From a virus (lineage: Duplodnaviria > Heunggongvirae > Uroviricota > Caudoviricetes), in IMG/VR virus record IMGVR_UViG_2537561709_000009: 13,144 nucleotides of DNA. One strand, written 5' to 3'. Under the pieces are notes generated by a model. The model was not told the DNA's origin, searched no databases, and saw only the letters and a list, made by a program, of their open reading frames with translations. Position numbers and translations under genes: made by a program. Shown here in pieces: positions 10,538-13,110 of the stretch (positions within the stretch are counted from its first letter, which is position 1; each line of letters opens with the position of its first letter).

Positions 10538-10580
10538 ACTCCTGGTGGGGGTGGCCTGTCCACGGGGCGGAGGGGCGCGG
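10538..10580 (+). repeat. G-rich conserved motif, copy 1 (TCCTGGTGGGGGTGGCCTGTCCACGGGGCGGAGG)
   Basis: Near-identical to 13074-13110; both copies start about 8-10 nt after an intrinsic terminator U-run. Confidence 0.6.
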
Positions 10581-10959
10581 AAAAAGGCGCATTTTTTGAT
10601 TTTTATGGCACCATCACCACCACTATAAGCTATTGATATGTTGAGAAATAAAAATTTTTAGTGTCGAATCAGGTTGTTTTTTGTTCATCACCGGAACGTT
10701 CCCGAAAACATTTACAAAAAACAGGCGCAAAAAAAGCGCCCCCGATTGCTGTTACCGGAGGCGCTTTTACACGACAAAGGAGTTTTTATCGCCAGGATGA
10801 CGAGTCTTAATACTGCTTCAATGGCAAAAATGCGTCAATAACTTTGCCTTTCTGAGAATAATCAGAAAAAACATAATCTGATTTTCAGGTAGAAAATGAT
10901 TTATCTATTACTTTTATCGATCAATAATGATGCCCGTTAATCAAAACGGAGGCGGATTT

Positions 10960-11154
10960 ATGCCAGAGAACAACACCAGAAAGCCGGATAAAAGTGCCAC
11001 GGTACACATAGACGCCGGAACTATGGAGAAGATCGAACGCTATCAGCAGTTCATCAAAGATAATCACCCGGGTATGCCAGTGCCCACGAAAGGACAAATC
11101 ACACGCAGCGCGGTTGAATACTGGTACAGGGCAACGTTAGGAGCCTGGCTATGA
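10960..11154 (+). CDS. Hypothetical protein (64 aa), coupled to the capsid gene
   Basis: ATG 10960 with GGAGG 7 nt upstream (track ORF 10927-11154 trimmed). Stop overlaps the capsid ATG (ATGA at 11151-11154). Confidence 0.55.
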   Translation: MPENNTRKPDKSATVHIDAGTMEKIERYQQFIKDNHPGMPVPTKGQITRSAVEYWYRATLGAWL

Positions 11155-13040
11155 AAACATGGTTTTCCATTAAGGCTATGGCAGATGTTGTACATGTGCG
11201 CATTTATGACGAGATCGGCGGGTACGGTGTAAAGGCATCGGCACTTACTGACGAGATCAACGCGTGCGGTAATGTGTCTGAAATCCATCTTCGCATCCAT
11301 TCATCTGGTGGCGACATCTTTGAAGGGCTGGCTATCTATAACGCCCTGAAAAATCATCCGGCAAAGAAAATTGTACACATTGAAGGCATGGCGGCTTCTA
11401 TGGCCTCGTTTATTGCCATGTGTGGCGATCACATCGTTATGCCTGAAAACGCGATGATGATGATACATGCCCCCCGTGGTGTTACTGCCGGAGTGTCGGG
11501 CGACGTTCGCCGCTTTGCTGACCTGATGGACAAGCTGGGCGACACGATGGCGGAAACCTACGCCGGAAGAACGGGCAGGAGCAAACAGGAAATCACCGCC
11601 ATGATGGAGGCGGAAACCTGGATGGATGGCAATGAGTGTAAGGCTAACGGCTTCGCAGATGAGGTTATAGCCGCGATTACAGCAATGGCCCGAATTGAAT
11701 CAAAACGAATCGGAGATTTTTCAAATATGCCGGAAAAAATTAAAAGCATGATCAGCCAGAAAACTACCAGTGGCGAACAGGAACGACTTAACGGCATCCG
11801 TGAATTGTTTGGCACGTTCAACGGAAGATATAACGACCTGGCTATAAGTTGTCTTGCTGATTCAGAATGTAGCGTTGAGAATGCACGCGAACGCCTTTTA
11901 CTCGCTATGGGTAAAGAATCAACGCCAACAAACAAAACCACCCCCGCAAATCTTTACTACGCGTACACGGATAACGGCAACATAACCGGCGATGCAATGC
12001 GCCAGGGGCTTAATGCGCGTCTTGGTCACGAACGGGCCGAACGCGGTAATCCTTACGCCATGATGAGCCTTTTCGATATGGCACAGGCATCATTAACCCA
12101 TCGTGGTATAAGCACGGGCAGCTACGGCACACGCTCGCAGATAGTAAACGCGGCATTCACCCACAGCAGCAGCGATTTTACCGATATTCTTGCTGGTGGC
12201 GCTGAAAAATCAGTGCTTGCAGGCTGGGAGCACAGCGGCGAAACATTCCGCCAGTGGACGAAAAAAGGTTCCCTTTCAAACTTCCGGGAAGCCCGCCGCG
12301 TTGGTATGAATGGCTTCTCAACGTTAAACAAAGTGCCGGAAGGGGCAGAATATAAATACATCACCACCAGCGATCGCGGTGAACCCATCGCGCTGGCTAC
12401 TTACGGGAATATTTTCAGCATTACCCGCCAGGCGATAATCAATGATGACCTTGATCAGTTATCAACGGTGCCAATGGCTATGGGCCGTGCTGCATCAAGA
12501 ACGGTGGGAAATCTGGTTAATCTGGTGCTTACAGGCAACGTAAAACTTTCTGACGGAATAGCGCTGTTTGACAAAAAACACAGCAACCTGATTGAAGCAG
12601 GACTGACAACACAGGGACTTAGTGCAGCACGTCACCTGATGCGCACACAGAAGGACAAAAATGGCGAAGTGCTGAATATTGCGCCTAAATTCCTTTTAGT
12701 TCCGGCAGCACTGGAAGATCGCGCGTTGCAGATGATTAACTCAACCGCACCTTTCGGGGCTGATAAAAACAGCGGGATCTTTAACCCGTATCACAAGCTA
12801 CTTGATATCATCGTCGATCCCCGCCTTGATGATATCAGCGAAAAACAATGGTACATGCTTTCCGCACAGGGAACGGACACAATCGAGGTGGCTTATCTTG
12901 ATGGCAGTGACGAGCCTTACCTTGAACAGCAGGAAGGTTTTATCGTTGACGGCGTGGCCTGGAAAGTCCGTATTGATGCAGGTGTGGCAGCTCTGGATTA
13001 TCGCGGTATGGTCAAATCAGGCGGGACAGATTCACTATGA
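11151..13040 (+). CDS. Prohead protease (ClpP/S14-like) fused to HK97-fold major capsid protein
   Basis: 629 aa. N-terminal ~180 aa aligns by eye to ClpP (IHSSGGDIFEGLAIYN, GMAASMASFIAMCGDH, MMMIHAPRG versus INSPGGVITAGMSIYD, GQAASMGAFLL, RVMIHQPLGG), with catalytic Ser and His positions conserved. The C-terminal ~400 aa looks like a phage major capsid protein, but that rests on length and general composition only. AGGAG Shine-Dalgarno 7 nt upstream. Confidence 0.88.
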   Translation: MKTWFSIKAMADVVHVRIYDEIGGYGVKASALTDEINACGNVSEIHLRIHSSGGDIFEGLAIYNALKNHPAKKIVHIEGMAASMASFIAMCGDHIVMPENAMMMIHAPRGVTAGVSGDVRRFADLMDKLGDTMAETYAGRTGRSKQEITAMMEAETWMDGNECKANGFADEVIAAITAMARIESKRIGDFSNMPEKIKSMISQKTTSGEQERLNGIRELFGTFNGRYNDLAISCLADSECSVENARERLLLAMGKESTPTNKTTPANLYYAYTDNGNITGDAMRQGLNARLGHERAERGNPYAMMSLFDMAQASLTHRGISTGSYGTRSQIVNAAFTHSSSDFTDILAGGAEKSVLAGWEHSGETFRQWTKKGSLSNFREARRVGMNGFSTLNKVPEGAEYKYITTSDRGEPIALATYGNIFSITRQAIINDDLDQLSTVPMAMGRAASRTVGNLVNLVLTGNVKLSDGIALFDKKHSNLIEAGLTTQGLSAARHLMRTQKDKNGEVLNIAPKFLLVPAALEDRALQMINSTAPFGADKNSGIFNPYHKLLDIIVDPRLDDISEKQWYMLSAQGTDTIEVAYLDGSDEPYLEQQEGFIVDGVAWKVRIDAGVAALDYRGMVKSGGTDSL

Positions 13041-13044
13041 CAAC

Positions 13045-13068
13045 AAGGCGGCACCAGCCGCCTTTTTT
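13045..13068 (+). terminator. Intrinsic terminator after the capsid gene
   Basis: AAGGCGGC / ACCA / GCCGCCTT stem-loop followed by TTTTTT, 4 nt after the stop. Confidence 0.7.
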
Positions 13069-13073
13069 GCGGG

Positions 13074-13110
13074 TCCTCCTGGTGGGGTGGGCCTGAACAC
13101 GGGGCGGGAC
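13074..13110 (+). repeat. G-rich conserved motif, copy 2 (TCCTCCTGGTGGGGTGGGCCTGAACACGGGGCGGGAC)
   Basis: Matches copy 1 at about 31 of 35 positions with two single-base indels; same placement after a terminator. Confidence 0.6.

What the first reader, a model, noticed from the sequence alone, without database searches (positions are those of the whole stretch)
10538..13110. A ~35-bp G-rich element occurs twice, each time just downstream of an intrinsic terminator
TCCTGGTGGGGGTGGCCTGTCCACGGGGCGGAGG (10540-10573) and TCCTGGTGGGGTGGGCCTGAACACGGGGCGGGAC (13077-13110) agree at about 31 of 35 positions and both start about 8-10 nt after a terminator U-run, after the SSB gene and after the capsid gene. 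Sequence is conserved rather than pairing potential, pointing to a protein-binding site or RNA signal. Each copy has several G-runs, so G-quadruplex potential on the transcribed strand is another option. I do not recognise it as a standard E. coli intergenic repeat.
Basis: seen in the sequence. Interest (0 to 1): 0.55.

Follow-up and report, generated by a model that had tools for sequence, protein, structure and literature searches.

The report
Helper-phage cos sites in a PICI satellite
The repeated G-rich element is the left arm (cosQ to the cosN cutting site) of a lambda-type DNA-packaging site, which a small E. coli phage satellite carries twice so that helper-phage terminase will package it; this kind of feature is already known, not a new signal.

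Summary
The two copies are real: 27 of 34 positions match, and 49 of 63 once the upstream hairpins are included, against at most 38 of 63 in simulated sequences. They are not a terminator-linked RNA signal or a chromosomal repeat. Each is the cosQ-to-cosN arm of a lambdoid cos site. Lambda's cosQ heptamer GGGTCCT lies at window 13071-13077 (AGGTACT at 10534-10540). After 24 nt comes CG|GGGCGG, the conserved left half of cosN. Of 96 occurrences in IMG/VR viral contigs, 52 lie between the lysis genes and a DUF1441-type small-terminase gene, where phages keep cos. The other occurrences that could be placed are the two satellite positions seen here. The window element (about 4012-13108) is an EcCICFT073-family PICI inserted between roxA and phoQ. 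EcCICFT073 is known experimentally to carry two functional cos sites.

Two details appear new. Copy 1 has a degenerate cosQ, and its cosB matches one helper TerS/cosB type (19 of 19). Copy 2, in intact relatives, has a perfect cosQ, and its cosB matches the other type (30 of 30). No Rpp homologue is present.

In this window copy 2 is cut off inside cosN and joined to flgG sequence.

Verdict: new member of a known kind, with low to moderate interest.

The parts
4012..13108 (+). PICI-type phage satellite inserted between roxA and phoQ (EcCICFT073 family). Genes: integrase 4230-5480, AlpA 5845-6033, DUF4222 7926-8225, RepA-type helicase 8222-9622, SSB 10071-10493, capsid fusion 11151-13040. The right end is missing from the window.
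   Evidence: Pfam hits. 94% nucleotide identity to the CFT073 island over roxA-int-alpA. Same insertion site in CFT073, O157:H7 and O91:H21.
10507..10531 (+). Intrinsic-terminator-like hairpin (core GCCGGAGAAATCCGGC) plus T6 after the SSB gene. The same hairpin precedes cos1 of EcCICFT073.
   Evidence: Fold; CFT073 sequence; present in 21/21 copy-1 loci.
10534..10540 (+). Degenerate cosQ (AGGTACT, 5/7 match to GGGTCCT) of cos copy 1.
   Evidence: Alignment to lambda cos. 19/21 copy-1 loci carry AGGTACT, whereas 52/52 helpers and 20/20 copy-2 loci carry GGGTCCT.
10540..10573 (+).
10563..10579 (+). cosN-like site of copy 1: CG|GGGCGG AGGGGCG|CG. The predicted top-strand nick lies between 10564 and 10565. 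The first 6 bp are conserved, and the variable right half is 13 nt here.
   Evidence: Homology to lambda CG|GGGCGGCGACCT|CG. The pattern of a conserved left half and a variable right half matches PMC4669245.
10580..10705 (+). cosB-like region of copy 1, helper type A. It includes CACCATCACCACCAC (10609-10623) and an IHF-consensus site (10626-10638, minus strand).
   Evidence: 83-86% identity to the DNA between cosN and the TerS gene in 19 type-A helper prophages, versus 67-70% to type B. IHF consensus match.
10927..11154 (+). 75-aa ORF (PHROG 4934, unknown function) between cos copy 1 and the capsid gene.
   Evidence: Conserved 387-389 nt downstream of copy 1 in 19 loci.
11151..13040 (+). ClpP-like prohead protease / HK97-type major capsid fusion gene, flanked by the two cos copies.
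   Evidence: Pfam PF00574 plus PF25209; PHROG 133.
13046..13068 (+). Intrinsic-terminator-like hairpin (GGCGGCACCAGCCGCC) plus T6 after the capsid gene.
   Evidence: Fold; present in 20/20 copy-2 loci.
13071..13077 (+). Intact cosQ heptamer GGGTCCT of cos copy 2.
   Evidence: Identical to lambda 48473-48479, with a 24-nt spacer to the nick versus 23 nt in lambda.
13077..13110 (+).
13109..13144 (+). Fragment of flgG coding sequence (..LLYQGYVETSNV) joined to the truncated cosN through a GCGGG microhomology. It replaces the cosB, 93-aa ORF and attR found in intact relatives.
   Evidence: 44/45 match to flgG in 5341 genomes; flgG sequence. The junction is absent from all collections searched.

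Best explanation
The G-rich element is the left arm of a lambda-type cohesive-end packaging site (cos). It runs from the last base of cosQ, through the 24-nt spacer, into the conserved left half of cosN, where helper terminase nicks the top strand (predicted between 10564/10565 and 13101/13102). It belongs to a family of lambdoid E. coli prophages with a DUF1441-type small terminase, a gpA-type large terminase and a protease-capsid fusion. The window element is an EcCICFT073-family PICI satellite that has no terminase of its own. It carries two co-oriented copies of its helpers' cos, so that helper terminase will cut and package concatemeric satellite DNA.

Shown: homology to lambda cosQ/cosN, the position of the motif at the cos locus of 52 prophages, and the match of each satellite copy to one helper cosB type.

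Inferred:
- Copy 1 (degenerate cosQ, cosN, type-A cosB) serves mainly as an initiation site for type-A helpers.
- Copy 2 (perfect cosQ and cosN, type-B cosB in intact relatives) serves as the termination site for either helper and as the initiation site for type-B helpers.
- Together the two copies widen the helper range without an Rpp protein.
- The hairpins are the terminators of the upstream satellite operons. They replace the phage's own left flank and probably keep transcription off cos.

In this window copy 2 is truncated inside cosN and is probably no longer a complete cos.
For: 1. Alignment with lambda. Lambda reads GGGTCCT-23 nt-ACG|GGGCGGCGACCT|CG. The helper and copy 2 read GGGTCCT-24 nt-ACG|GGGCGGGCGGCG|CG. 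The helper's left flank ATGATAACCATTATCA matches lambda's ATGATAATCATTATCA.
2. A natural hybrid, L097, joins this arm to lambda's own cosB exactly 12 bp after the predicted nick.
3. An IMG/VR scan found 96 occurrences. Of these, 52 lie between Rz and the DUF1441 TerS gene, co-oriented and 182-228 nt upstream of its start; 21 lie after SSB and 20 after the satellite capsid gene. DUF1441 corresponds to PHROG 141, 'terminase small subunit' (E = 4e-67).
4. GGGCGG and the flanking CG are invariant, while bp 7 onward varies. Feiss and colleagues describe the same pattern for lambda-like cosN, and report cosQ as a conserved 7-bp termination signal (PMC4669245).
5. The island sits at the same roxA/phoQ site as EcCICFT073 and shares its integrase. 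EcCICFT073 has two cos sites shown by deletion and cosmid-type transfer to be functional (PMC6092414; PMC6739421). Its cos1 is preceded by the same hairpin.
6. In O157:H7 and OkiPb01698, relatives with the same late (cos-capsid) module are embedded in the terL gene of a prophage that carries the same motif at its cos position. This matches the helper-embedded PICIs of PMC10111431.
7. Helper TerS proteins fall into two types: 53% identical in residues 1-66 and 100% identical in residues 96-158. All 19 type-A helpers have cosB closer to copy 1, and all 30 type-B helpers have cosB closer to copy 2.
8. The record of phage mEp460_4F5 starts 5 nt upstream of the predicted nick.
Against: - No physical ends have been determined for this phage group, so the nick positions and the 12-13-nt overhang rest on homology only.
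- Copy 1 has a 13-nt cohesive-end equivalent whose right half is unlike those of the sampled helpers, and a 5/7 cosQ. It could be a decaying or decoy site rather than a working one.
- The satellite loci sampled are close relatives, so 19/21 and 20/20 are not independent observations.
- In EcCICFT073 the two cos sites are inverted and flank rppA. The direct arrangement around a capsid gene seen here is therefore not the same architecture, and no Rpp homologue was found.
- Copy 2 in this window lacks the right half of cosN and all of cosB.
Confidence: 0.88

Rival explanations
1. The motif is an RNA-level signal tied to the preceding terminators, such as a read-through, antitermination or processing element, or a G-quadruplex on the transcript or DNA.
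For: Both satellite copies begin 8 nt after a hairpin plus U6. Copy 2 and the helper consensus have four G3+ runs if a 9-nt loop is allowed.
Against: 52/52 helper-prophage copies have no hairpin upstream. The motif folds no better than shuffles (z +0.96 and +0.48). There was no Rfam match. Copy 1 has only three G3+ runs, and neither copy fits G3+N1-7. Lambda's homologous arm has no such runs. The conserved bases are those of cosQ and cosN.
Confidence: 0.04
2. The two copies are recombination sites or ends of a 2.5-kb mobile cassette carrying the capsid gene, or the product of a recent internal duplication.
For: They are direct repeats flanking one module. Homology between the window and its relatives stops at the motif. 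Chimeras that switch partner at the motif exist: L060 and L097.
Against: The copies are only 78% identical over 63 nt. Each is closer to a different helper cos than to the other copy: cosB 83-86% or 80-85% to its helper type versus 71% between the two copies. This argues against a recent duplication. The integrase att sites lie at the roxA/phoQ borders. Switching partner at a shared 40-200-bp sequence is what ordinary homologous recombination between cos sites would produce.
Confidence: 0.05
3. Only one copy is a working cos. The other is a decoy or relic: it might titrate or misdirect helper terminase (interference), or be a decaying remnant of an earlier helper association.
For: Copy 1 has a degenerate cosQ in 19/21 loci and an atypical 13-nt cohesive-end equivalent. 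In EcCICFT073, cos2 is dispensable and deleting it even raises lambda-mediated transfer (PMC6092414).
Against: Copy 1 keeps the invariant CG|GGGCGG and 83-86% identity to type-A cosB over 140 nt, including an IHF consensus. That is more conservation than expected of a relic. By lambda's rules cosQ is not needed for initiation (PMC4669245).
Confidence: 0.25

Closest known systems
Bacteriophage lambda cos (cosQ-cosN-cosB)
   Same: [quoted passage not shown]
   Different: The spacer sequence is G-rich and unlike lambda's. [quoted passage not shown] The cosB sequence is unrelated to lambda's R sites. The cognate TerS is a DUF1441 / PHROG 141 protein rather than gpNu1.
cos1/cos2 of the E. coli PICI EcCICFT073 (Fillol-Salom et al. 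2018, 2019)
   Same: Same island family and roxA/phoQ insertion site. Two cos sites in the late region of a terminase-less satellite. cosQ and cosN match the helper. The same GCCGGAGAAATCCGGC-T hairpin lies immediately upstream of one site.
   Different: The CFT073 sites are lambda/phi80-type, lie in inverted orientation and flank rppA, and their cosB is unlike the helper's and is read by Rpp-TerS. Here the sites are direct repeats flanking a protease-capsid gene, each cosB resembles a helper cosB type, and there is no Rpp homologue.
Helper-embedded PICIs (Mageeney et al. 2023, PMC10111431)
   Same: Relatives that share the window's late (cos-capsid) module sit inside the terL gene of their presumed helper, co-oriented with the late genes. 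Satellite and helper share a cos-like segment of a few hundred bp.
   Different: The window copy sits at a chromosomal site (roxA/phoQ) and is a mosaic of a chromosomal-type left half and an embedded-type right half. That paper reports one shared 258-bp segment for 11capE, not two sites.
cos-type SaPIs (SaPIbov5, SaPIbov4)
   Same: Satellites that copy the helper cos site. SaPIbov4 is reported to have two putative cos sites, and some encode a capsid-protein homologue.
   Different: They are Gram-positive elements with unrelated sequences and HNH-dependent terminases.

Membership tests
lambda-like cos site | 7-bp cosQ (GGGTCCT) about 23 bp upstream of the top-strand nick | tested here: met
   Copy 2: 7/7 at 13071-13077 with a 24-nt spacer. 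Copy 1: 5/7 (AGGTACT) at 10534-10540 with the same spacing.
lambda-like cos site | cosN: CG|GGGCGG left half conserved, variable bp 7-12, CG after the overhang | tested here: met
   Copy 1 has the full pattern (with a 13-nt equivalent). Copy 2 has only the left half in this window and the full pattern in relatives. GGGCGG was a fixed part of the scan pattern, so its presence is by construction; the flanking CG and the variable right half were observed in the 96 loci.
lambda-like cos site | cosB (TerS-binding region with IHF site) between cosN and the terS gene, co-varying with TerS specificity | tested here: met
   Copy 1: 83-86% identity to type-A helper cosB, plus an IHF consensus at 10626-10638. 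Helper cosB type tracks the TerS N-terminal type in 49/49 cases. The copy 2 cosB is absent from the window.
lambda-like cos site | In phages, a location between the lysis cassette and the terminase genes | tested here: met
   52 of the 96 IMG/VR occurrences lie upstream of the TerS gene (47 of them with Rz detected upstream); the same holds for L001, L009 and CP-1639.
lambda-like cos site | Terminase cleavage that gives 5' cohesive ends at this position | not testable with these tools
   The only hint is that the record of phage mEp460_4F5 starts 5 nt upstream of the predicted nick.
Gram-negative cos-type PICI (EcCICFT073 family) | int - alpA - replication (pri/rep plus ori) - late zone, 10-20 kb, unidirectional, no terminase genes | tested here: met
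   Pfam: integrase, AlpA, AAA_25 helicase, SSB, capsid. Iteron-like repeats at 9621-9805. About 10.8 kb in the intact relative L010.
Gram-negative cos-type PICI (EcCICFT073 family) | Rpp protein that redirects helper TerS to a PICI-specific cosB | tested here: not met
   tblastn with RppA (c1503) found nothing in the window, L001, L009 or L010. The 93-aa and 75-aa ORFs have no PDB match to RppC.
Gram-negative cos-type PICI (EcCICFT073 family) | Helper-dependent induction, packaging and transfer | not testable with these tools
   This needs induction and transduction experiments.
E. coli intergenic repeats (REP/BIME, ERIC, BoxC) or a described RNA family | Dispersed chromosomal copies, palindromic units, or a match to an Rfam model | tested here: not met
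   No Rfam hit near either copy at E <= 1. Copies occur only at phage or PICI loci. None were found in 185,579 species-representative genomes.
G-quadruplex motif | Four G3+ runs with loops of 1-7 nt, conserved between copies | tested here: not met
   Neither copy fits. Copy 2 fits only with a 9-nt loop, and copy 1 has three runs.

The most novel reading that the evidence does not exclude
This PICI lineage dispenses with Rpp. Instead it carries two helper-derived cos sites with divided roles. One is a cosQ-defective, initiation-only site matched to TerS/cosB type A. The other is a complete site matched to type B that also serves as the universal terminator. A single satellite could then be packaged by two terminase specificity groups of STEC lambdoid prophages, and could control where packaging series start and stop.
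Probability: 0.35. Interest if true: 0.5.

Novelty: new member of a known kind. Interest (0 to 1): 0.3.

Why it matters
The result settles the finding: the element is the DNA-packaging site of a phage satellite, not an unknown regulatory signal. It defines the cosQ-cosN-cosB layout of a widespread group of STEC lambdoid prophages, including Stx1 and Stx2 phages such as VT1-Sakai and CP-1639; I found no paper quoting this cos sequence in the searched library. It also suggests a testable variation on known satellite piracy. Two cos sites, each matched to one of two helper terminase specificities, would take the place of an Rpp adaptor. That would help explain which prophages can mobilise which islands in pathogenic E. 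coli.

Tried and rejected
- Rfam scan of the whole window at E <= 1 gave only three sub-threshold chance hits around 10687-10857 and none at either motif copy.
- RNA folding of the motif alone was no better than shuffles.
- The consensus terminator scan did not list the two hairpins. Folding was used instead.
- att-site idea: no third copy lies near the integrase end, so this was rejected.
- Recent duplication was rejected, because each copy is closer to a different helper cos than to the other copy.
- Rpp search: tblastn with RppA, and PDB sequence searches with the 93-aa and 75-aa ORFs, found nothing.
- Source and junction search: the cos2-flgG junction was not found in 5,426 complete E. coli genomes, IMG/VR, GTDB representatives or JGI metagenomes.
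- Motif scan of GTDB species representatives found no hits.
- Literature search for the sequence strings returned only unrelated papers.
- Idea of a cos-to-pseudo-cos packaged circle for the flgG junction: not testable here. From my memory of the K-12 map the interval would be about 60 kb, rather large for phage genomes of about 45 kb (sizes of related phage records).
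Full report
**Observation.** They agree at 27 of 34 positions, or 27 of 31 in the core, which is fewer than the "31 of 35" stated. The repeat is longer than described. Without gaps it runs 63 nt (10508-10570 and 13045-13107; 49/63), taking in the upstream hairpin and T-run. This is the best 63-nt pair in the window, and 30 simulated windows reached at most 38/63.

Both hairpins fold as expected: a 9-bp stem plus U6 and an 8-bp stem plus U6. Each motif begins 8 nt after its U-run. 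The upstream genes are an SSB gene (10071-10493) and a ClpP-protease/major-capsid fusion gene (11151-13040).

**Context.** Window 220-4011 holds potA, pepT and roxA. From about 4012 the window carries an integrase, AlpA, a DUF4222 protein, a RepA-type helicase followed by three iteron-like repeats, SSB, a 75-aa ORF and the capsid fusion. This is the layout of a Gram-negative PICI. The roxA-int-alpA part is 94% identical in nucleotides to the CFT073 island at the same roxA/phoQ site, which is EcCICFT073.

The window is a mosaic. Positions 65-10399 are 99.4% identical to the O157:H7 island at roxA/phoQ. Positions 9875-13108 are 99.1% identical to a second O157:H7 island. That second island, like its relative in strain OkiPb01698, is inserted inside the large-terminase gene of a lambdoid prophage. 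This is the "helper-embedded PICI" configuration of Mageeney et al. (PMC10111431).

**What the motif is.** In both of those genomes a third copy of the motif lies in the surrounding prophage, between the Rz lysis gene and a DUF1441 gene. PHROGs files that gene as a small terminase subunit (E = 4e-67). That is where lambdoid phages keep cos.

Alignment with the ends of lambda confirms the homology:
- Lambda reads ATGATAATCATTATCAC-TTTAC-GGGTCCT-(23 nt)-ACG|GGGCGGCGACCT|CG.
- The helper reads ATGATAACCATTATCA-TTTTGC-GGGTCCT-(24 nt)-ACG|GGGCGGGCGGCG|CG.

GGGTCCT occupies lambda 48473-48479; from my own recollection of Wieczorek & Feiss 2001, not checked here, these are the coordinates defined as cosQ. 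cosQ is the conserved 7-bp signal needed to terminate packaging, and CG|GGGCGG is the conserved left half of cosN (PMC4669245).

An IMG/VR contig (L097) carries this same arm fused to lambda's own cosB, beginning exactly 12 bp after the predicted nick. This shows that the two arms are positionally equivalent.

**Survey.** An exact-pattern scan of IMG/VR found 96 occurrences:
- 52 lie upstream of a DUF1441 TerS gene, co-oriented and 182-228 nt from its start (47 of them with Rz detected upstream).
- 21 lie after an SSB gene and before the 75-aa ORF.
- 20 lie after the satellite capsid gene and before a conserved 93-aa ORF.
- 3 could not be placed in any of these classes.

cosQ is intact in 52/52 helper copies and 20/20 copy-2 loci, but in only 2/21 copy-1 loci; the other 19 read AGGTACT. 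The helper copies have no hairpin upstream, so the association with terminators is a property of the satellite, not of the motif. GGGCGG was fixed in the scan pattern; the CG that follows the overhang is conserved and the right half varies (GCGGCG, GCGGGCG, ACGGCG, AGGGGCG and others). Feiss and colleagues describe this pattern for lambda-like phages.

The motif has no Rfam match and folds no better than shuffled sequence. It does not occur in any GTDB species-representative genome.

**Relation to known biology.** EcCICFT073 has no terminase and is packaged by helper cos machinery. It carries two cos sites, and deletions and plasmid-transfer tests showed both to be functional. Its cos1 is recognised through a PICI-specific cosB by an Rpp-TerS complex (PMC6092414; PMC6739421; reviewed in PMC9026076).

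I located both sites in CFT073. They are lambda-type, lie in inverted orientation and flank rppA. cos1 is preceded by the same GCCGGAGAAATCCGGC-T hairpin as window copy 1. The finding is thus the equivalent feature in a sister island whose late module comes from a different helper family.

**Why two copies (inference).** The helper prophages fall into two small-terminase types. Residues 1-66 are 53% identical; by analogy with lambda gpNu1 (an assumption not tested here) this would be the DNA-binding part. Residues 96-158 are 100% identical. Over the 140 nt after the motif:
- All 19 type-A helpers resemble satellite copy 1 more closely (83-86% versus 72-74%).
- All 30 type-B helpers resemble copy 2 of intact relatives more closely (80-85% versus 67-70%).

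No RppA homologue exists in the window or its relatives. Under the lambda rules, initiation needs cosN and cosB, termination needs cosQ and cosN, and termination is indifferent to cosB. Copy 1 would then be an initiation site for type-A helpers that terminates poorly. Copy 2 would be a complete site for type-B helpers and a terminator for both. This is plausible but untested, and the satellite loci sampled are close relatives of one another.

**State of copy 2 in this window.** Homology to all relatives stops at 13108, inside cosN (GGGCGGG|AC). The last 36-45 nt are flgG coding sequence in the sense orientation (44/45). The junction lies in a patch of chance similarity, GGGCCTGAAC..GCGGG.

In relatives, cosB, a 93-aa ORF and attR/phoQ follow instead. 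The junction is absent from every collection searched. It could be a duplication junction, a circular molecule or a misassembly, and I could not decide between these.

**Verdict.** The terminator/RNA and G-quadruplex readings are not supported. The feature is a new member of a known kind, PICI cos sites copied from helper phages. It adds a modestly novel and testable detail: two cos sites matched to two helper specificities, without Rpp.

Noticed in passing
window 13100-13144: cos copy 2 is truncated inside cosN and joined in frame-sense to the 3' part of flgG (44/45 identity). The junction lies at a GCGGG microhomology within a wider chance similarity (GGGCCTGAAC in both). No searched collection contains this junction. 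It may be a tandem-duplication junction, a circular or packaged molecule, or a misassembly.
   Followed up: partly
window 65-10399 versus 9875-13108: The island is a mosaic of two O157:H7 satellites: 99.4% to the roxA/phoQ island and 99.1% to the island embedded in a prophage terL gene. The crossover lies inside the SSB gene.
   Followed up: partly
L001 4480-17376; L009 2635-15187: In E. coli OkiPb01698 and O157:H7 3-5-1 a satellite with the same late (cos-capsid) module splits the large-terminase gene of a lambdoid prophage. The satellite encodes its own version of that prophage's protease-capsid fusion (about 65% nucleotide identity).
   Followed up: partly
window 9621-9637, 9706-9722, 9789-9805: Three copies of AAAAGTGAGGnGnAAAA spaced 85 and 83 nt apart, directly after the RepA-type helicase gene. 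They are probably iterons of the satellite replication origin.
   Followed up: no
L097 (minus strand) about 1780-1930: A natural hybrid cos: this motif's cosQ-cosN arm followed by GGGCGGAAGGCG and then lambda's own cosB sequence.
   Followed up: partly
L060 (minus strand) about 10070-10330: A chimera with the helper left flank (Rz, ATGATAACCATTATCA), the motif, and then the satellite copy-2-type right side with the 93-aa ORF. It suggests recombination between helper and satellite at cos.
   Followed up: no
window 10609-10623; L013 12112-12123: A CACCAYCACCACCAC run in the cosB of copy 1 (bp 45-59 from the nick) resembles CACCACCACCAC in EcCICFT073 cos1 (bp 54-65). Murialdo and Feiss place the proposed Rpp-binding R3-PICI there.
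   Followed up: no
L001 15599-15880; L013 12874-13155: A conserved 93-aa ORF (PHROG 1561, unknown function; c1504 of CFT073 by my inference from gene order, not checked) is the last gene of these islands. It always follows cos copy 2 by about 221 nt and is missing from the window.
   Followed up: partly
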